From IMG/VR virus record IMGVR_UViG_3300015187_000032: 11,452 nt of DNA; one strand, given 5' to 3'. A program made the translations under genes and the position numbers. The DNA is from a virus. Its lineage: Duplodnaviria > Heunggongvirae > Uroviricota > Caudoviricetes. The notes under the pieces were generated by a model. It ran no database searches. It saw only the letters and a list, made by a program, of their open reading frames with translations, and was not told where the DNA came from. Position 1 is the first letter of the stretch; every line of letters starts with the position of its first letter. Below are positions 1,424 to 8,967 of the stretch, one piece after another.

Positions 1424-1612
1424 TCACGAGGACTGAAGTTTCTCGCAATTAAAATTAATCAGTTTTACTTTCTGCTCTCTGGAAACGCCTGCTTCTTTTT
1501 TACCTGAGAGCATTTTTTCACATTCTGATTTCGTTAGTTTAGATTTTGAATATCTTGTCCAGTTAGTAGGAGTGCCACCTTCCTTTTCAATAGTGGCGGT
1601 AATTTTATACAT
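1424..1612 (-). CDS. ydaC: Small prophage protein of unknown function (YdaC-like, 62 aa from this start)
   Basis: Track ORF 1424..1684. ATG at rc 1610-1612 is preceded by GGAGGTG at 6-nt spacing (rc of 1613-1630), giving MYKITATIEKEGG.... The longer 86-aa start would overlap lar by about 80 nt and lacks an SD. Start choice is inference. Confidence 0.6.
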   Translation of the reverse strand: MYKITATIEKEGGTPTNWTRYSKSKLTKSECEKMLSGKKEAGVSREQKVKLINFNCEKLQSS

Positions 1613-2664: not shown

Positions 2665-5257
2665 TTGCATATTCCTTAGCCCAGCGGGGCAGTGATAACG
2701 TCTTAATAGCTGGCCATTCATCGGTATTGAGGCAGTCAGCCAGGGTTCGCAGATTGCGGTGATATTCCAGCTGACCTGCCAGTTTTGCTTCTTCGCCCAT
2801 CATGAAAATTTCAACCGGATAACGTCCGCATTCAATAGTTGTGCTGGCAACCAGAAAAACGAAAGTTGGCTGCACTCCAAACTGTGCTTCATAACCGTCA
2901 CTGTAGAATGCATCCTGAACGTGATAGCGGTAGTCGTAATAAGCGGTTTTGAATCGTTGAATATCCGCCGTAGTTTTCACGTCCATGATCCAGTGAAATT
3001 CAGGGATAATTTTGTCCGGACGGCACCGACACAAAATTCCTGTTTCAGGATCTTCCCAGTAAATTGATGATTCAGCGTGTCCGGCGCTTTCAATAAGCCA
3101 TTGCCCCAGCGGCAAAGCCATAACGCTTTGATACATGAGTTCAATTTTCCGGCCTTCTTCCGCAGTGATAACCGTTTTTCCTGTGCTTGCGCATTCCATC
3201 AGAAACGCTTTCTCTTCTTCTTTTCCGGCGTTTGTACGGCGATTAAATTCAGGTGCTACGATAAAGCGGTTACTGAATTCTTCCGGTTCAAGTACCCGGC
3301 AGTGGAAAGCGGTTCCTAAATCGAGCGTTTTTGTCTTTGTGGTGTCCACGGGGGCATTTTTACGCCACAAATACAGTGCCGGAGTATCAGCAATGTCATC
3401 GAGCTGAGACTTACTGACACCGGGACCCGCGTGGTAATTCTCATTCGAAATTCCGTAATAAATACCTGGCTCTATGTCTTCTACGATTACGGGATCTGCG
3501 ACTTCGCCAGTTTCATCACTGCAATCGCGATGCGGATCGCTGCCAGCATTCTCATTGTGCGGATGTTCAGCGCCTTCCATTTCCTCCGGATCATTTTCCT
3601 TAGCTTCAACCTGACTCTCTTCATCGAATGTTTCCTGGTATGTTGCCTCGCCCATCACCGCACCACAGTCAGGGCAGTTATCCCCGCCAGTCTGGCCGCA
3701 GGCATTGCAGGCTATTTCCGGTTCCTGTTGCACTACTGGCTCAGGTTGATTCATATCCGGGCTGGTTTTTTCCGTTTCTGGCTGGTTCTGGTGCACAGAA
3801 TCGCGAGTCTGGATCCCCTTTACCCATTTCGGATCGTTCGGGTCGCTAATTCCGTCAACAAATTCACCACGTGATGCAGCAAGCAATTTATCGGCATCGA
3901 CAGGATTTTTTGATGGAATGTTTTTCCGGGCTTCATGGAGTTCTGCCCGCAGTTTCTGATATTTCGCATCAACAGAATTTACCTGTGACTGAGCATCCAA
4001 CGGCTGCGTGTCCTGATGATGTTCAGTTGCGTCCGGTTCCATTGTTTCAGCCTCTCCCTGTTCAACTGCCGTTGTTCCAGATGGTTGCGGTTTTTCTTCA
4101 TCATCCTGTTTTCCTTCTTCTGTTACTCGCTGCGGCATCGGGGCAGAGGAGCGACCGCAGGCAATATCCACGATTTCCGGATCAGGGTTTGCATGATCGG
4201 TTTCAGTCAGTACTTTGTTCAGATATTCAGTGACGTGCGCGGGGATGACCTCGATCCCAATTGGTGCTTCTTTTACGGACGCAACCACGATGGCGCGGGA
4301 ATAATCCAGCCCGCCAGGCATGGTGATGAATTTGTCGCGGAAAACAGAAAAGGGCGGTTTATTTTCAGCGATAATTTCCTCAATGCGTTTAGCGTGTGCC
4401 GGATGAAGGTTATAGATGTCTAGATCCATTGAACGGGCCAGTACGCCAGTGGCTACGTCGCGCGCCAGTGACGTCAGATCGTGTACGAAACCTTCGCCGC
4501 GATCGGTGAGGTTTCCGCCGCCAGCATTAGCACCGGAAGCCGTGCGAGTGATGTGTGAAACACGATTACCCTTCATCCACTCTTTTGTCAGCAGTCCTCG
4601 ATCGGTGTAGTCAGCGTTCAGGTATGCTTCGAAAAAAGCAGTTATCAGTCCCAGGTTTGAATTACCAGGATTAGGGAAAACTTTGTCAGTGTCACGAACC
4701 AGTTTGTGGAGATCGCGAATTTCCAGCGGGTCGAGCAGGCTGGTTTTGTGGGAAACAGCCAGGGCAGTAACAGCCGGTAGTTCTTCAGCCCGAGCAATGT
4801 GTAATGCCTGGAGTCCGTCGCGTGAAACGTGCGTTACCGGTTTTTCGCTGCCGTGTTGAGCAAGCCAGCGAATGGGCAGTTCCTGGCCAGAAATTGGGAG
4901 TAGCATATTCTCCTCAATCTCAGTCATGTCTTCGCCGTTGACGTTGGTATTGCCTTGATAGTGAGCGTTGTCTGGTGCTGCTCCCGGTTTTAGTTCCCAT
5001 GTCATGGAGTCTTTGCTGAGTTGATAGCGTTCACTCCAGGTAAAATCGATCTCACCTTCAGCGGGCAGGTCATTAACGACAGGAAAATTCGTGGCAACAG
5101 CTTTAAAATAGCTGCTCAGTTTTTTACCTGACTTAACGATCAGGTAGTCCAGAGTGGCACAGGTCGATTCAAAATCGTCGCTTGCCCACAGGACGACGTC
5201 AGGTTCACCGGATGATTTTTTCGCTTTCCGTAACAGGAAGAGTGGTTTTGTGCTCAT
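2657..5257 (-). CDS. recE: RecE exonuclease VIII (866 aa), 5'-3' dsDNA exonuclease partner of RecT
   Basis: Single 866-aa ORF on the minus strand. C-terminal part (...[32 protein letters not shown]...DVKTT...) is the nuclease domain. Middle is acidic and low-complexity, with a Cys4 motif (CNAC-x10-CPDC). Length and sequence fit Rac RecE. Confidence 0.9.
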
Positions 5258-5328
5258 TGTTTTTTAACCTCAACTCAGATTAAAATTCGTTTTGTTCAGT
5301 GAATGATCTTGCCGGATACACACTGTTC

Positions 5329-5353
5329 ATAGCCTGCGCCATACGCAGGCTAT
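5329..5353 (-). other. Perfect 10-bp stem / 5-nt loop hairpin 6 nt downstream of the racC stop, between racC and recE
   Basis: 5329-5338 ATAGCCTGCG pairs with 5344-5353 CGCAGGCTAT; loop is CCATA. On the minus-strand transcript it is not followed by a U-tract, so it is not a canonical intrinsic terminator. Confidence 0.3.
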
Positions 5354-5358
5354 TTCTT

Positions 5359-5634
5359 TCAGATTTCACCTTTTAATTTCATTGCAATTAGAGTTGCCAG
5401 AAATTCGGCTTTTTTTTCTGTGGGCAGATTCTTTCCGGTATGCACCAGGCACATTTTTTTGACACCTTCGTGAAGTGTTTTAACGTTGCCTGATGGACCG
5501 TCGATATCAACCACAGTGAATGGGGTTTCTTTATTTTCTGTTTTAATCACGTAGCCAATACGCTTTCCTTCCAGATTAACTTCGTGAACAATGTCATCAG
5601 TAGTTACAACAGTGGCTTCATAACTGGTAATCAT
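5359..5634 (-). CDS. racC: RacC small prophage protein (91 aa)
   Basis: Track ORF 5359..5682 trimmed to ATG at rc 5632-5634 (MITSYEATVVTTDD...), preceded by AAGGAG at 6-nt spacing (rc of 5635-5650). Confidence 0.75.
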   Translation of the reverse strand: MITSYEATVVTTDDIVHEVNLEGKRIGYVIKTENKETPFTVVDIDGPSGNVKTLHEGVKKMCLVHTGKNLPTEKKAEFLATLIAMKLKGEI

Positions 5635-5708
5635 GTTTTTCTCCTTAATTAAGGTTGAGCGAATCCCTGCCATTGCTGGCATAAATTCAGTTTCGCATAG
5701 TCAGTTAA

Positions 5709-5879
5709 TTAAAGTTCGTGTGCCATCTGGTCTTTTTCGGCACATATTTCACTACAATATTTTTTCATTTCCGTCGTTGGGATAACTCCACGCATGAAAT
5801 GAAGTGGTCTTTTAATGCTTTTGCTTTCTTTAACTTCTTTATCGCAAAGATGGTAAGCACATTTTATTTTCTTAGTCAT
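5709..5879 (-). CDS. ydaE: YdaE small Cys-rich (putative zinc-binding) protein, 56 aa; missing from the ORF track (<60 aa)
   Basis: Hand translation of the minus strand gives [56 protein letters not shown] with stop TAA (rc 5709-5711). Four Cys (C7, C12, C43, C47). The ATG overlaps the kilR stop (rc 5877-5881 = TGATG), suggesting translational coupling. Confidence 0.65.
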   Translation of the reverse strand: MTKKIKCAYHLCDKEVKESKSIKRPLHFMRGVIPTTEMKKYCSEICAEKDQMAHEL

Positions 5880-6531: not shown

Positions 6532-7020
6532 ATGTTGGATGTATTTACTCCATTGTTGAAACTTTTTGCTAACGAGCCACTCGAAAGACTTATGTATACG
6601 ATTATCATTTTTGGTCTCACTCTCTGGCTGATACCGAAAGAGTTTACTGTCGCATTCAATGCTTATACTGAAATACCTTGGCTCTTTCAGATTATCGTTT
6701 TTGCCTTTTCTTTCGTGGTCGCCATTTCCTTCTCAAGATTGCGAGCACATATTCAAAAGCATTATTCATTACTACCAGAGCAACGAGTATTGCTTCGTTT
6801 ATCTGAGAAAGAAATCGCTGTATTTAAAGATTTCCTTAAAACAGGAAATCTTATTATCACTTCTCCTTGTCGTAACCCGGTTATGAAAAAATTAGAACGG
6901 AAGGGCATCATTCAACATCAGAGTGATAGCGCAAACTGTTCTTATTATCTCGTCACCGAAAAATACTCCCATTTTATGAAGTTATTCTGGAACAGCAGGA
7001 GTAGACGTTTTAATCGTTAG
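6532..7020 (+). CDS. sieB: SieB superinfection-exclusion protein (162 aa), membrane protein
   Basis: Track ORF 6409..7020 trimmed to ATG 6532 (MLDVFTPLLKLFANEPLERLMYTIIIFGLTLWLIPKEF...). Two hydrophobic segments are predicted. Encoded opposite to the surrounding leftward operon. The stop overlaps the ydaF stop on the other strand. Confidence 0.8.
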   Translation: MLDVFTPLLKLFANEPLERLMYTIIIFGLTLWLIPKEFTVAFNAYTEIPWLFQIIVFAFSFVVAISFSRLRAHIQKHYSLLPEQRVLLRLSEKEIAVFKDFLKTGNLIITSPCRNPVMKKLERKGIIQHQSDSANCSYYLVTEKYSHFMKLFWNSRSRRFNR

Positions 7021-7172
7021 CTTACTGTGTGCTTCTCCAACCATCGGCGCGCACCAGTTTCTGTTTTAAATGTTTTGCTTTTGGTATACGTCATAGCAGT
7101 GAACGTTCCATCTTGGTTGGGGAACACGCCGCACACAATGGATTCGTTATTGCCGAGGTCGATTTTTTGCAT
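7017..7172 (-). CDS. ydaF: YdaF small prophage protein (51 aa); missing from the ORF track
   Basis: Hand translation gives MQKIDLGNNESIVCGVFPNQDGTFTAMTYTKSKTFKTETGARRWLEKHTVS. ATG at rc 7170-7172 is preceded by GAGGTG, which contains the ydaG stop codon. Stop TAA at rc 7017-7019. Confidence 0.55.
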   Translation of the reverse strand: MQKIDLGNNESIVCGVFPNQDGTFTAMTYTKSKTFKTETGARRWLEKHTVS

Positions 7173-7182
7173 TTTTCGCACC

Positions 7183-7317
7183 TCACATCTTGTTGTTGCG
7201 GATAGAGGCTTCTGCCTGCCAGAGATCCCAGTCGTTGCTGCGTAAAGCCTGCACAGCCTGGTTGTAAGTGATGCCGCAACAATCCATCAAATACTGAACT
7301 ACTTCGTAATGCACCAT
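7183..7317 (-). CDS. ydaG: YdaG small prophage protein (44 aa); missing from the ORF track
   Basis: Hand translation gives MVHYEVVQYLMDCCGITYNQAVQALRSNDWDLWQAEASIRNNKM. ATG at rc 7315-7317 is preceded by GGGGAGA at about 6-nt spacing. First gene downstream of the leftward early promoter. Confidence 0.6.
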   Translation of the reverse strand: MVHYEVVQYLMDCCGITYNQAVQALRSNDWDLWQAEASIRNNKM

Positions 7318-7486
7318 CTTATCTCTCCCCTTAACGCCGGGTGGCGGAACTAACTGCTGCACTGCAAAATTTGAATCCCGCCGTCATGTTCATACGCCTC
7401 GGGCTGGCTACTTAACCCCTGACCACTGCCTGGTAACTCGAAGTATTGCCCGGCGTTCTGTGGGGCGGGGTGGGTGGTATGCTGGA

Positions 7487-7515
7487 ACTATAGGTAATGC
7501 CTAATTGATTGTCAA
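7487..7515 (-). promoter_or_regulatory. pL-like leftward early promoter: TTGACA -17 bp- TATAGT on the minus strand
   Basis: rc of 7510-7515 is TTGACA; rc of 7487-7492 is TATAGT; the spacer is exactly 17 bp. Oriented toward ydaG-ydaF-kilR-recET. Flanked and overlapped by the operator palindromes. Confidence 0.45.
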
Positions 7516-7528
7516 TAGGCTATGCCTA
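7491..7528. promoter_or_regulatory. Left operator cluster (OL-like): two 13-bp TAGGC-N3-GCCTA palindromes 25 bp apart
   Basis: 7491-7503 TAGGTAATGCCTA (imperfect) and 7516-7528 TAGGCTATGCCTA (perfect). The second abuts the -35; the first overlaps the -10. The same 13-mer family recurs three times on the other side of racR. Confidence 0.5.
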
Positions 7529-7589
7529 ATATTTTGAGCGTAACCTAATAGGTGATGGCGACAGCAGAAAGTGATGGGGGGGTTAAATA

Positions 7590-7611
7590 ACGGAATCCAG
7601 GAGTTTTCCGT
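7590..7611 (-). terminator. Weak candidate terminator hairpin downstream of racR
   Basis: ACGGAA (7590-7595) pairs with TTCCGT (7606-7611), loop 10 nt. On the minus strand it is followed by UUAUUUAA then a C7 run. Sits about 15 nt past the racR stop (TAA, rc 7626-7628). Confidence 0.2.
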
Positions 7612-7625
7612 CAGACCATATAAGT

Positions 7626-8102
7626 TTAAGTTCCAGTTTTTGTGATGTTCTGGCTTTTCCGTTCAGATTCTAGAGCTTTCAGATACTTACCCACTTTCAT
7701 TTCCATCGCTGCTATGTAGGCGCGAACATCGTGGTCAACCCAATCTGGTTCTGTAGCATTTCCAGATAACAGGAAAGCTACAATCGCTCTTATTTCATCA
7801 GAGGCTGCTTGATAAAGGTTGTTTATATCTAAAAGTTCACTTTTTGTATCTGAATTGGTGGGGGTTGGTATGGGGTATTCGTTAAGCCCCCAATGCTCTG
7901 GACCAACAACATCAGAAAAGAAACGCCATAATTCTGGAAGTTTATCTTTACTTATAGAGCCTTTCTTAATCCAGTCATAAATTGATGGTGGTTGGACTTT
8001 GAAGTGGCGTGCGACCTCCGCCTTTGATTTGACGGATCCCGATGCGATTTTTTTGTTAATGGCCTGCTCTATCGCTCGGCCTAAGTCTTTACCACTAAGC
8101 AT
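7626..8102 (-). CDS. racR: RacR prophage repressor (158 aa), HTH DNA-binding protein
   Basis: Track ORF 7626..8102. Divergent from ydaS across a 123-bp operator-rich intergenic region. Sequence recognised as Rac RacR. Confidence 0.85.
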   Translation of the reverse strand: MLSGKDLGRAIEQAINKKIASGSVKSKAEVARHFKVQPPSIYDWIKKGSISKDKLPELWRFFSDVVGPEHWGLNEYPIPTPTNSDTKSELLDINNLYQAASDEIRAIVAFLLSGNATEPDWVDHDVRAYIAAMEMKVGKYLKALESERKSQNITKTGT

Positions 8103-8131
8103 TGCTTAATATTCTCCTATGCGCATTGCAT

Positions 8132-8195
8132 TAGGCAATCCCTACCTTTATCGTATTAGGCATAGCCTATTGACATTTGCGTTAGGCGTCGCCTA
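8132..8195. promoter_or_regulatory. Right operator cluster (OR-like): three 13-bp TAGGC-N3-GCCTA palindromes at 25-26-bp centre spacing, between racR and ydaS
   Basis: 8132-8144 TAGGCAATCCCTA (imperfect), 8157-8169 TAGGCATAGCCTA (perfect), 8183-8195 TAGGCGTCGCCTA (perfect). The 21-bp block 8155-8175 is the exact reverse complement of 7510-7530. Confidence 0.5.
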
Positions 8196-8199
8196 ATAT
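8170..8199 (+). promoter_or_regulatory. pR-like rightward early promoter: TTGACA -18 bp- TAATAT
   Basis: TTGACA at 8170-8175; best -10 candidate TAATAT at 8194-8199, overlapping the third operator. Followed by GGAG (8214-8217) and the ydaS ATG at 8226. Confidence 0.4.
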
Positions 8200-8225
8200 T
8201 TCTGTGTGTTTTTGGAGTTCATTCG

Positions 8226-8522
8226 ATGAAAAAAGAGAACTATTCATTCAAGCAAGCTTGTGCTGTTGTCGGTGGGCAATCAGCAATGGCTAGGCTTTTA
8301 GGTGTATCACCTCCAAGCGTAAATCAATGGATCAAAGGGGTACGTCAATTGCCTGCCGAGAGATGTCCAGCAATTGAACGTGCAACAAGAGGTGAGGTTC
8401 TGTGCGAAGAACTTCGTCCAGATATTGACTGGTCATATTTACGACGTTCGGCATGTTGTTCGCAGAATATGTCAGTGAAGCAACTAAATGACAGTAACAA
8501 ATCCTCATTTGATCATACCTGA
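8226..8522 (+). CDS. ydaS: YdaS: Cro-like HTH early protein (98 aa), toxic when derepressed
   Basis: Track ORF 8226..8522, first gene of the rightward operon. ...SAMARLLGVSPPSVNQWIKG... is an HTH-like segment. Recognised as Rac YdaS. Confidence 0.85.
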   Translation: MKKENYSFKQACAVVGGQSAMARLLGVSPPSVNQWIKGVRQLPAERCPAIERATRGEVLCEELRPDIDWSYLRRSACCSQNMSVKQLNDSNKSSFDHT

Positions 8523-8544
8523 AACATCAAGAGGCAAATGATTC

Positions 8545-8967
8545 ATGAAAATCAAGCATGAGCACATCGAATCAGTGTTGTTTGCCCTGGCAGCCGAAAA
8601 AGGGCAGGCATGGGTAGCCAATGCAATTACTGAAGAATATCTGCGCCAGGGGGGCGGCGAATTGCCCCTAGTTCCAGGCAAGGACTGGAACAATCAGCAG
8701 AATATCTATCACCGTTGGTTGAAAGGTGAAACGAAAACGCAAAGAGAAAAAATTCAGAAGCTGATCCCAGCAATTCTGGCAATCCTTCCGCGCGAGCTGC
8801 GTCACCGACTCTGCATCTTCGATACCCTGGAACGCCGTGCATTACTGGCGGCGCAGGAAGCGTTAAGTACGGCAATTGATGCGCATGATGATGCAGTCCA
8901 GGCCGTTTACCGGAAAGCGCATTTCAGCGGCGGCGGGTCTTCCGACGATTCTGTCATTGTTCATTAA
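8545..8967 (+). CDS. ydaT: YdaT: CII-like / toxin-like early protein (140 aa)
   Basis: Track ORF 8545..8967; SD AAGAGG upstream of the ATG. Recognised as Rac YdaT. Confidence 0.85.
   Translation: MKIKHEHIESVLFALAAEKGQAWVANAITEEYLRQGGGELPLVPGKDWNNQQNIYHRWLKGETKTQREKIQKLIPAILAILPRELRHRLCIFDTLERRALLAAQEALSTAIDAHDDAVQAVYRKAHFSGGGSSDDSVIVH

What the first reader, a model, noticed from the sequence alone, without database searches (positions are those of the whole stretch)
7487..8200. Immunity switch: 13-bp TAGGC-N3-GCCTA operators on both flanks of racR, sharing an identical 21-bp promoter block
The block ATTAGGCATAGCCTATTGACA occurs at 8155-8175 on the plus strand and as an exact reverse complement at 7510-7530. 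In each copy a TTGACA -35 hexamer directly abuts a perfect 13-bp palindrome. There are two such palindromes on the left and three on the right, with centres 25-26 bp apart. This is the lambda-style OL/OR layout around a repressor gene, but with a different operator family and about 2.5-turn spacing. The arrangement predicts that RacR binds as a dimer, cooperatively, and occludes both early promoters.
Basis: seen in the sequence. Interest (0 to 1): 0.5.

Follow-up and report, generated by a model that had tools for sequence, protein, structure and literature searches.

The report
Rac prophage repressor operators, both flanks
This is the on/off switch of the defective Rac prophage of E. coli: the repressor RacR has binding sites on both sides of its own gene that cover the two early promoters. 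The right-hand half has already been mapped experimentally, and the left-hand half is an expected counterpart that I could not find described.

Summary
The window is the E. coli Rac prophage early region: racR 7626-8102 (-), ydaS 8226-8522 (+). The 21-bp block occurs exactly twice, inverted (0 of 200 shuffles). TAGGC-N3-GCCTA with at most 1 mismatch occurs 5 times, all in two clusters (0.2 expected).

The right cluster is already published. RacR EMSA, ChIP and DNase I footprints, the (T/A)TAGGC-n3-GCCTA(T/A) consensus, the mapped PydaST promoter (TTGACA-18-TAATAT) and a RacR octamer are in papers from 2017 to 2025. Those papers count four right-hand operators.

I found no description of the left cluster (7491-7503, 7516-7528). 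It sits in a near-consensus leftward promoter, TTGACA-17-TATAGT. Comparative analysis supports it strongly:
- The cassette operator-TTGACA-N6-operator/-10 lies downstream of the repressor, on the repressor's strand, in 19 of 26 relatives across Gamma- and Betaproteobacteria.
- Among 34 E. coli variants, 2 of 30 functional positions vary, against 65 of 131 neighbouring positions.
- Published CRISPRi data require a RacR-controlled promoter downstream of racR.

Verdict: a correct reading of an ordinary, largely known lambdoid OL/OR switch. The only modest additions are the PL/OL pair and an extra operator unit in the Rac OR.

The parts
7487..7515 (-). Predicted early-left promoter (PL analogue). 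The -35 TTGACA is at 7515-7510 and the -10 TATAGT at 7492-7487, with a 17-bp spacer. The predicted start is near 7480 (K-12 about 1419619), reading toward ydaG, ydaF, kilR, recET and intR.
   Evidence: Promoter scan gives 11 of 12 matches. Both hexamers are invariant in 34 E. coli variants. The same cassette occurs in 19 of 26 relatives. The start site is inferred, not mapped.
7491..7503 (.). Left operator proximal to the promoter (OL1-like). It reads TAGGTAATGCCTA, with 1 mismatch. It fills the promoter spacer and overlaps the first 2 bases of the -10.
   Evidence: The only variable arm position is 7495, T or A. The equivalent site is present in relatives.
7516..7528 (.). Left operator distal to the promoter (OL2-like). 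It reads TAGGCTATGCCTA with perfect arms and abuts the -35.
   Evidence: Among the variants the arms are invariant except one variant at 7524, while the N3 centre varies.
7510..7530 (-). Left copy of the 21-bp block ATTAGGCATAGCCTATTGACA: operator with its AT flank plus the -35.
7535..7553 (.). Possible weak third left site at 7535-7547, with 3 mismatches, centred 19 bp from the distal operator. It overlaps an 11-bp palindrome ACCTAATAGGT at 7543-7553. Low confidence.
   Evidence: Read from the sequence. The equivalent in E. ruysiae L006 has 2 mismatches. The stretch is nearly invariant among E. coli variants.
7626..8102 (-). racR, the repressor gene (158 aa). It has an N-terminal helix-turn-helix domain of about 75 aa and no S24 peptidase domain.
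8096..8108 (.). Operator over the racR start codon, TAAGCATTGCTTA with 2 mismatches. This is the published O3/O4.
   Evidence: It is conserved as TAGGCAATGCTTA over the ATG in most of the 28 relatives.
8132..8144 (.). Right operator TAGGCAATCCCTA (1 mismatch), in the racR promoter region. It is the homologue of the -35-abutting site TAGGCAATTCCTA in relatives.
8157..8169. Right operator TAGGCATAGCCTA with perfect arms, abutting the PydaST -35.
8155..8175 (+). Right copy of the 21-bp block.
8170..8199 (+). PydaST, the PR analogue: -35 TTGACA at 8170-8175 and -10 TAATAT at 8194-8199, with an 18-bp spacer.
8183..8195. Right operator O1, TAGGCGTCGCCTA with perfect arms. It lies in the PydaST spacer and overlaps the -10. 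In the published footprints this promoter region is protected at the lowest RacR concentration.
8226..8522 (+). ydaS, the Cro-like gene transcribed from PydaST.
   Evidence: Pfam YdaS_toxin 2.6e-31 and P22_Cro 3.4e-9.

Best explanation
The region is the immunity switch of the lambdoid prophage Rac. RacR recognises 17-bp operators of the form AT-TAGGC-N3-GCCTA-AT through its N-terminal helix-turn-helix domain, probably as one dimer per operator.

Right side (published). Four operators span the racR-ydaS intergenic region:
- One lies in the spacer and -10 of PydaST.
- One abuts its -35.
- Two cover the leaderless racR promoters and the racR ATG.
RacR therefore shuts off ydaS-ydaT and regulates its own synthesis.

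Left side (inferred here). A mirror-image cassette lies 98 bp beyond the racR stop codon: operator, TTGACA, 6 bp, then an operator overlapping TATAGT. This is the PL analogue. RacR bound to its two operators, centred 25 bp apart, should block RNA polymerase from the early-left operon ydaG-ydaF-kilR-ydaE-racC-recET-ralR-xisR-intR.

Because RacR is an octamer in solution, the left pair and the right sites, about 665 bp apart, could be bridged by one repressor assembly, as in lambda. This last step is speculative.
For: Identity of the locus.

Motif statistics.

Promoter geometry. Both promoters place a 13-bp operator inside the spacer, overlapping the -10 by 2 bp, and a second operator flush against the -35.

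Published experiments on the right side:
- Three GCCTAA/TTAGGC repeats, EMSA with 3 complexes, ChIP-qPCR and reporter repression (PMC5700373).
- DNase I footprints, the ATTAGGC half-site, operators O1-O3 and the single ydaS start site with TTGACA/TAATAT (PMC9638921).
- Four inverted repeats and the octamer (PMC11014345).

Left side, comparative evidence:
- Of 28 genomic loci that encode the RacR N-terminal domain, 19 of 26 distinct ones carry the cassette [TAGGC-N3-GCCTA]TTGACA-N6/7-[TAGGC-N3-GCCTA]. It lies 62-2705 bp downstream of the repressor stop and always on the repressor's strand.
- The isolated Klebsiella phage KpF5 has the cassette too.
- In the reverse test, 111 of 120 viral contigs that hold the strict cassette also encode the RacR N-terminal domain. 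Most of the other 9 have the cassette close to an end of the stored stretch or are short stretches.
- Among 34 unique E. coli variants, 2 of 30 operator-arm or hexamer positions vary, against 65 of 131 neighbouring positions (Fisher p = 7e-6). Substitutions fall in the N3 centre and in the linkers.
- The same pattern holds on the right side between K-12 and the window.

Expression data:
- ydaG, ydaF, kilR, ydaE and racC rise 40-70-fold when RacR falls.
- A Cascade block inside racR lowers racR RNA 11-20-fold yet derepresses ydaG through intR. The leftward transcripts therefore cannot be read-through from the racR promoters.
Against: - No binding, footprint or start-site data exist for the left sites in anything I could read.
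- The proximal left operator always has an imperfect arm, ACCTA or TCCTA.
- Published work on Rho attributes kil expression to read-through from racR past a Rho-dependent terminator inside racR. Some leftward transcription is therefore independent of this promoter.
- 7 of 26 relatives show no recognisable downstream cassette within the 4 kb fetched.
- One dimer per site, cooperativity and looping are all untested.
Confidence: 0.85

Rival explanations
1. The left palindromes are RacR-bound roadblocks, or a termination signal, at the end of the racR transcription unit. They would stop read-through into the toxic kilR operon and would not be operators of a separate promoter.
For: The sites lie 98-135 bp downstream of the racR stop, in the path of racR transcripts. 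Read-through from racR into kil is a documented hazard held in check by Rho. The scan flags TAGGCTATGCCTA plus a T-rich tail as terminator-like.
Against: - The terminator-like call is on the + strand, the wrong strand for racR. Its stem has only 5 pairs.
- The flawless TTGACA and a good -10 at 17-bp spacing are conserved together with the operators across classes of bacteria. They are invariant in E. coli variants. A roadblock would not require them.
- Blocking racR transcription with Cascade still derepresses the leftward genes.
- The roadblock role could coexist with the promoter role.
Confidence: 0.08
2. The two 21-bp inverted copies are primarily recombination or cassette boundaries. They would be terminal inverted repeats that let the racR immunity gene be swapped or inverted, and their operator and promoter look would be secondary.
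For: Exact 21-bp inverted repeats bracket a 624-bp segment that holds only racR. The repressor's C-terminal part and the cargo next to it differ widely among relatives, which suggests modular exchange.
Against: - 18 of the 21 positions are explained by operator arms, their AT flank and the -35.
- In non-Escherichia relatives the two distal blocks are not identical to each other, yet both promoter cassettes persist.
- K-12 itself has 20 of 21.
- The distance between the blocks ranges from about 0.6 to 3.5 kb.
- 21 bp is very short for homologous recombination (my own knowledge).
Confidence: 0.03
3. The left cluster is a decaying relic in a cryptic prophage and no longer controls anything. The leftward genes would respond to RacR loss only indirectly, for example through YdaS, YdaT or prophage excision.
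For: Rac is defective. One left operator is imperfect. YdaS and YdaT are themselves transcription factors that are induced when RacR falls.
Against: The cassette is under clear purifying selection among E. coli variants. It is identical in architecture in a functional isolated phage. The imperfect arm is itself conserved as A or T.
Confidence: 0.04

Closest known systems
Published RacR operators of the racR-ydaS intergenic region (Krishnamurthi et al. 2017, PMC5700373; Wisniewska et al. 2022, PMC9638921; the same group's 2023 and 2025 papers, PMC11014345 and PMC11879457)
   Same: The right-hand cluster is this very object. It has the same half-site ATTAGGC, the same consensus (T/A)TAGGC-n3-GCCTA(T/A) and the same PydaST hexamers. 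RacR binding and repression have been shown, and the analogy to lambda CI/Cro is stated explicitly.
   Different: Those papers treat only the intergenic region and the start of racR. They relate the octamer to the four intergenic repeats. They call the RacR regulon and the ydaFG operon uncharacterised. The two sites and the promoter downstream of racR are not mentioned in any text I could search.
Bacteriophage lambda OL/OR with PL, PR, PRM and the CI octamer loop
   Same: - The repressor gene lies between two operator clusters that share one operator sequence.
- Operators overlap two outward-facing early promoters.
- The repressor transcript is leaderless, with an operator at its start.
- Tandem operators are about 2.3-2.4 helical turns apart.
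- The repressor is an octamer.
- Cro and CII analogues (YdaS, YdaT) are present.
   Different: - The operator sequence is different.
- RacR has no S24 self-cleavage domain and has a different C-terminal fold.
- There are four sites in OR and two in OL, against three and three in lambda.
- OL and OR are about 0.67 kb apart, against about 2.4 kb in lambda (my own knowledge).
- One operator sits wholly inside the promoter spacer.
- YdaS reportedly does not repress racR.
CP-933P prophage switch (PaaR2/YdaS/YdaT) with PL933P and OL1-3 (Jurenas et al. 2021, PMC8630535)
   Same: It has the same gene order, with YdaS and YdaT homologues. [quoted passage not shown] Its operators resemble those at OR, and it was shown to be repressed by the repressor and by YdaS.
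   Different: The operators are unrelated 18-bp palindromes built on GTTTAGTAA. A toxin-antitoxin pair sits between the repressor and PL. For CP-933P the left promoter was tested experimentally, whereas for Rac it has not been.

Membership tests
Lambdoid immunity region (repressor/Cro switch with OR and OL) | Repressor gene transcribed divergently from a cro-like gene, across a short region with several tandem operators | tested here: met
   racR (-) and ydaS (+) are 123 bp apart, with 4 motif sites between and over them. YdaS matches the P22_Cro and YdaS families.
Lambdoid immunity region (repressor/Cro switch with OR and OL) | A second operator cluster with the same operator sequence, overlapping an outward-facing promoter on the far side of the repressor gene | tested here: met
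   Sites at 7491 and 7516 lie within TTGACA-17-TATAGT on the racR strand. The arrangement is conserved in 19 of 26 relatives and in phage KpF5. This rests on sequence only.
Lambdoid immunity region (repressor/Cro switch with OR and OL) | The repressor physically binds the operators and represses the early promoters | not testable with these tools
   For the right side this is shown in the literature. For the left side there are no data, only indirect expression evidence.
Lambdoid immunity region (repressor/Cro switch with OR and OL) | Higher-order repressor assembly able to bridge OL and OR | not testable with these tools
   An octamer by size-exclusion chromatography is published. Looping has never been tested.
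Lambda CI / LexA-type self-cleaving repressors (S24 peptidase C-terminal domain) | C-terminal S24 peptidase domain that mediates RecA-stimulated self-cleavage | tested here: not met
   Pfam finds only a weak helix-turn-helix match in RacR and no S24 domain. Some relatives with the same N-terminal domain do carry PF00717. RacR works like CI but is not a member of that protein family.
RacR operator family (T/A)TAGGC-n3-GCCTA(T/A) as defined by Wisniewska et al. 2022 | Inverted TAGGC arms separated by 3 bp, with A/T flanks | tested here: met
   7516-7528 reads AA-TAGGC-TAT-GCCTA-AT, with perfect arms. 7491-7503 reads TA-TAGGT-AAT-GCCTA-AT, with one mismatch.
Intrinsic (Rho-independent) terminator | G+C-rich hairpin followed by a run of T on the strand of the upstream gene | tested here: not met
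   The only terminator-like calls are on the + strand, with 5-7 pair stems that are the operators themselves. None is on the racR strand.

The most novel reading that the evidence does not exclude
The left operator pair is a functional OL, and the published RacR octamer does not sit only on the four intergenic repeats. Instead it bridges OL and OR through a DNA loop of about 0.67 kb that encloses racR itself. This would give lambda-like long-range cooperativity and autoregulation with a repressor that lacks the CI C-terminal fold. In addition, the Escherichia lineage rebuilt its PR by copying the distal operator/-35 block of PL. That left the ancestral operator stranded as a fourth site.
Probability: 0.35. 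Interest if true: 0.4.

Novelty: already known. Interest (0 to 1): 0.25.

Why it matters
RacR is one of the few essential transcription factors of E. coli K-12, because losing it unleashes toxic prophage genes. Knowing that it also has a dedicated operator pair and promoter for the kilR-recET-intR operon would complete the map of its regulon. It would explain why the leftward genes rise 40-70-fold when RacR drops. It would also give a defined target for studying RecET activation (the classical sbcA phenotype) and Rac excision. The conserved cassette, with one 13-bp operator embedded in a consensus promoter spacer and another flush against the -35, is a compact and tightly repressible promoter design found from Escherichia to Burkholderia. 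None of this changes the current understanding of lambdoid switches.

Tried and rejected
- Terminator reading of the palindromes: rejected because the calls are on the wrong strand and the stems are short.
- Structured leader RNA downstream of the predicted left promoter: not significant, z = -1.2.
- Rfam scan of the window: only RalA at 1428-1606, nothing in the finding.
- Literature searches for a described Rac PL/OL found nothing. I tried sbcA with operator, KilS, the operator sequences as text and genome-wide RacR binding data.
- One search was wasted on a badly chosen term.
- Conter et al. 1996, on kil and the Rac repressor, is not held. I therefore cannot exclude that older, non-open papers noted the left promoter.
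- Pseudomonas phage D14H (53% identity in the N-terminal domain) was too diverged to test whether operators co-vary with the repressor.
- A whole-genome count of the motif in K-12 was not possible with the tools. By calculation, a perfect 10-base motif is expected about 4 times by chance in 4.6 Mb. Stray hits in about 190 kb of relatives' flanks match that background.
Full report
WHAT THE WINDOW IS. The 1.3 kb around the finding is 100% identical to E. coli chromosomes. There it is annotated racR (DNA-binding transcriptional repressor RacR), ydaS and ydaT. The surrounding annotation is the early region of the cryptic lambdoid prophage Rac: intR, xisR, ralR, recT, recE, racC, ydaE, kilR, sieB, ydaF, ydaG, racR, ydaS, ydaT, ydaU, ydaV. 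In window coordinates:
- racR is 7626-8102 (-)
- ydaS is 8226-8522 (+)
- ydaT is 8545-8967 (+)
- ydaG is 7183-7317 (-)
- ydaF is 7017-7172 (-)
Window position x corresponds to K-12 MG1655 position x + 1412139 across 7300-8260 (an alignment without gaps).

CHECKING THE OBSERVATION. The 21-mer ATTAGGCATAGCCTATTGACA occurs at 8155-8175 (+) and as an exact reverse complement at 7510-7530. No other match appears even with 3 mismatches, and none appears in 200 shuffles. TAGGCNNNGCCTA with at most one mismatch gives five hits: 7491, 7516, 8132, 8157 and 8183. Chance expectation is 0.20, and 0 of 200 shuffles reach five. Allowing two mismatches adds 8096-8108, which lies over the racR start codon. Centres are 25 bp apart on the left and 25 and 26 bp apart on the right.

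The promoter scan finds exactly two strong sigma-70 matches in 7000-8600. One is TTGACA-17-TATAGT on the minus strand (7515..7487, 11 of 12). The other is TTGACA-18-TAATAT on the plus strand (8170..8199, 10 of 12). Written in the direction of transcription, the two promoters have the same anatomy:
- left: AT-TAGGCATAGCCTA-TTGACA-atcaat-TAGGCATTACCTA-TAGT
- right: AT-TAGGCATAGCCTA-TTGACA-tttgcgt-TAGGCGTCGCCTA-ATAT
In each, one operator is flush against the -35. The other lies inside the spacer and supplies the first two bases of the -10.

First, two of the five sites are imperfect. Second, there is a fourth right-hand site. Third, the exact 21-bp identity depends on the strain, because K-12 has ACA instead of ATA in the right copy.

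WHAT IS ALREADY PUBLISHED. The right-hand cluster is a characterised object.
- Krishnamurthi et al. 2017 described three GCCTAA/TTAGGC repeats in the 123-bp intergenic region. They showed three RacR-DNA complexes by EMSA, ChIP-qPCR enrichment and RacR-dependent repression of a reporter. They also drew the lambda analogy.
- Wisniewska et al. 2022 mapped a single ydaS start site with -35 TTGACA and -10 TAATAT, and three racR promoters including a leaderless one. They footprinted RacR with DNase I, and the ydaST promoter region was protected at the lowest concentration. They derived the half-site ATTAGGC and the operator (T/A)TAGGC-n3-GCCTA(T/A). They also noted an operator over the racR ATG.
- Later papers from the same group speak of four inverted repeats. 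They show that RacR is an octamer by gel filtration and that it has a CI-like N-terminal domain with an unrelated C-terminal domain. They show that YdaT acts as a CII analogue.
- For the related prophage CP-933P, a PL promoter with OL1-3 beyond the repressor operon was identified and tested. Its operator sequence is unrelated.

WHAT I COULD NOT FIND PUBLISHED. None of these texts mentions RacR sites or a promoter downstream of racR. The 2023 paper says that the RacR regulon, including the ydaFG operon, is uncharacterised, and it relates the octamer to the four intergenic repeats. Searches for the operator sequences as text, for sbcA with operator, for KilS and for genome-wide RacR binding data found nothing. 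The 1996 paper on kil and the Rac repressor is not held. An older description therefore cannot be excluded.

IS THE LEFT CLUSTER REAL? COMPARATIVE TEST. RacR homologues share a highly conserved N-terminal domain of about 75 residues. Invariant residues include the stretch PPS..DW..KGSISK.KLPELW. The C-terminal parts differ: some are RacR-type, some are S24 peptidase and some are other folds. A scan of one genome per species returned 28 loci, from Escherichia, Mixta, Morganella, Proteus, Klebsiella and Erwinia to Achromobacter, Burkholderia, Herbaspirillum, Nitrosomonas and others.

Upstream of the repressor, most relatives have three sites at fixed positions, with centres at 0, -35 and -60 from the ATG. 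One is TAGGCAATGCTTA over the start codon, so that ATG-CTT-A encodes the conserved Met-Leu. The next is TAGGCAATTCCTA abutting TTGACA. The third is a perfect site in the spacer and -10 of the promoter that faces the cro-like gene.

Downstream, 19 of 26 distinct loci carry the cassette [TAGGC-N3-GCCTA]TTGACA-N6-[TAGGC-N3-GCCTA](A/T)TAT. The start-to-start spacing is 25 bp, and 26 bp in one locus. The cassette is always on the repressor's strand and lies 62 to 2705 bp beyond the stop codon. Stray single hits elsewhere in these roughly 190 kb number about five, which is what chance predicts (and calculation).

The isolated Klebsiella phage KpF5 has three upstream sites and the downstream cassette 1.4 kb away, beyond a DUF450 gene. 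Escherichia phage vB_EcoS-683R6 has the Rac arrangement.

In the reverse direction, I searched viral contigs for the strict cassette. Of the 120 stretches returned, 111 encode the RacR N-terminal domain. Most of the other nine have the cassette close to an end of the stored stretch or are short stretches. In the non-Escherichia cases the cassette lies 1.2-2.2 kb downstream on the repressor's strand.

IS THE LEFT CLUSTER REAL? VARIATION WITHIN E. COLI. I aligned 34 unique versions of 7420-7640 taken from the fetched loci. The ten arm positions of each operator and both hexamers are invariant with two exceptions. Position 7495 is T or A, so that arm is always imperfect. Position 7524 differs in one variant. 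Substitutions pile up in the N3 centres, in the 6-bp linker 7506-7509 and outside the cassette. Counting columns between 7440 and 7600, 2 of 30 functional positions vary against 65 of 131 others (Fisher p = 7e-6). The sequences are related, so this p-value is only indicative. The same pattern appears on the right side between the window and K-12. There are seven substitutions in the intergenic region, and none falls in an operator arm or a hexamer.

EXPRESSION EVIDENCE FROM THE LITERATURE. When RacR is lowered by the Csp231I C protein, ydaF, ydaG, ydaE and racC rise about 40-fold, and kilR, ydaC and ralA rise more than 70-fold. A Cascade complex placed at +3 or +58 inside racR lowers racR RNA 20- and 11-fold. 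In the same experiment ydaG, kilR, ydaE, racC, recE, recT, ralR, xisR and intR are strongly derepressed. These genes lie downstream of racR on the same strand. Their induction while racR transcripts fall therefore requires a separate, RacR-controlled promoter between racR and ydaG. That is my inference, and it fits the promoter at 7487-7515. Work on Rho shows that some transcription can also read through from racR when a Rho-dependent terminator inside racR fails. The two routes are not exclusive.

MECHANISM. Shown by others:
- RacR binds the right-hand repeats.
- RacR represses PydaST.
- RacR is an octamer.
- The racR message is leaderless.

Inferred here:
- RacR also binds 7491-7503 and 7516-7528, and so blocks RNA polymerase at a strong leftward promoter.
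- One site fills the spacer and overlaps the -10. The other is flush with the -35, and its AT flank overlaps the TT of TTGACA.
- With AT flanks the operator is 17 bp long, and neighbouring operators are 8 bp apart.
- A centre-to-centre distance of 25 bp is 2.4 helical turns, close to the 23-24 bp of lambda (my own knowledge). The spacing is therefore not a distinguishing feature.
- Pairwise cooperativity is plausible, given the flexible linker between the domains and the stepwise EMSA complexes. It has not been measured.

Speculative: the octamer bridges the left pair and the right sites across about 665 bp.

RIVALS.
- A terminator for racR is excluded by strand and stem length.
- A pure roadblock function does not explain the conserved consensus hexamers or the CRISPRi result.
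- Cassette-boundary repeats are unlikely. 18 of the 21 positions are accounted for by operator and -35. The two blocks differ from each other in non-Escherichia relatives. K-12 has 20 of 21.
- A dead relic is contradicted by the substitution pattern and by the same layout in a living phage.

A SIDE RESULT. Escherichia Rac has four right-hand operators where all other relatives have three. Aligned with Mixta or Morganella, Rac carries an extra 25-bp unit between the ancestral -35-abutting site (TAGGCAATTCCTA, which reads TAGGCAATCCCTA in Rac) and TTGACA. The new distal block, TAGGCATAGCCTA-TTGACA, is the sequence found at the left promoter of Morganella, Proteus and other Enterobacterales relatives. 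The right-hand block in Rac therefore looks like a copy of the left-hand one. It is an inference from a small sample of lineages.

VERDICT. The finding is accurate, and its interpretation is essentially right. However, it describes a lambdoid immunity switch whose right half has been dissected experimentally since 2017. The left operator pair and its promoter are the expected PL/OL counterpart. I could not find them described for Rac, and the comparative evidence for them is strong, but a specialist would not be surprised. Interest is low to moderate.

Noticed in passing
window 8132-8169, compared with L007-L030 at -60 to -35 from the repressor ATG: Escherichia Rac has four right-hand operators where every other relative has three. 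An extra 25-bp unit sits between the ancestral -35-abutting site and TTGACA. The new block equals the left-promoter block of other Enterobacterales, so it looks like a copy from PL to PR.
   Followed up: partly
window 8096-8108; L007-L030 at the repressor start codon: The operator centred on the repressor's ATG (TAGGCAATGCTTA) is conserved from Enterobacterales to Burkholderiales. The conserved N-terminal Met-Leu codons double as an operator arm.
   Followed up: partly
proteins P0103, P0105, P0114, P0117 and loci L013-L029: The RacR DNA-binding domain is joined to different C-terminal parts in different relatives, including S24 self-cleaving peptidase domains. RacR itself has none, so it should not be inducible by RecA-stimulated cleavage.
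   Followed up: partly
L013-L029 and L151 (Klebsiella phage KpF5 locus, 4478-5873): The gap between the repressor stop and the left promoter cassette ranges from 62 bp to 2.7 kb. In the longer cases it holds extra genes, such as a DUF450 protein in KpF5. The position is analogous to lambda rexAB and may hold cargo expressed in the lysogen.
   Followed up: no
window 7535-7553: An 11-bp palindrome ACCTAATAGGT, built from operator-like pentamers in the opposite order, overlaps a weak operator-like site (3 mismatches) centred 19 bp from the distal left operator. The stretch is nearly invariant among E. coli variants although its surroundings vary.
   Followed up: partly
window 7455-7480, minus strand: The first ~25 nt of the predicted leftward transcript are C-rich and G-poor (CAUACCACCCACCCCGCCCCACAG), like a Rho utilisation site. 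The 180-nt leader before ydaG has no significant structure, z = -1.2.
   Followed up: partly
window 8145-8156: The published -10 of the racR promoter PracR2 (AGTAAG in K-12) is changed in this strain. cccttactgcat in K-12 reads cctttatcgtat here. It lies in the linker between two operators, so the minor racR promoters differ between strains.
   Followed up: no
window 1428-1606 (+): The RalA antitoxin small RNA of the RalR/RalA system matches Rfam RF02694 at 222.7 bits.
   Followed up: no
window 7183-7317 (-): The 44-aa YdaG, the first gene after the predicted left promoter, gives a match to UBA-like domains (PF14555, E = 4e-5, 23.7 bits, just above the 21.8-bit cutoff).
   Followed up: no
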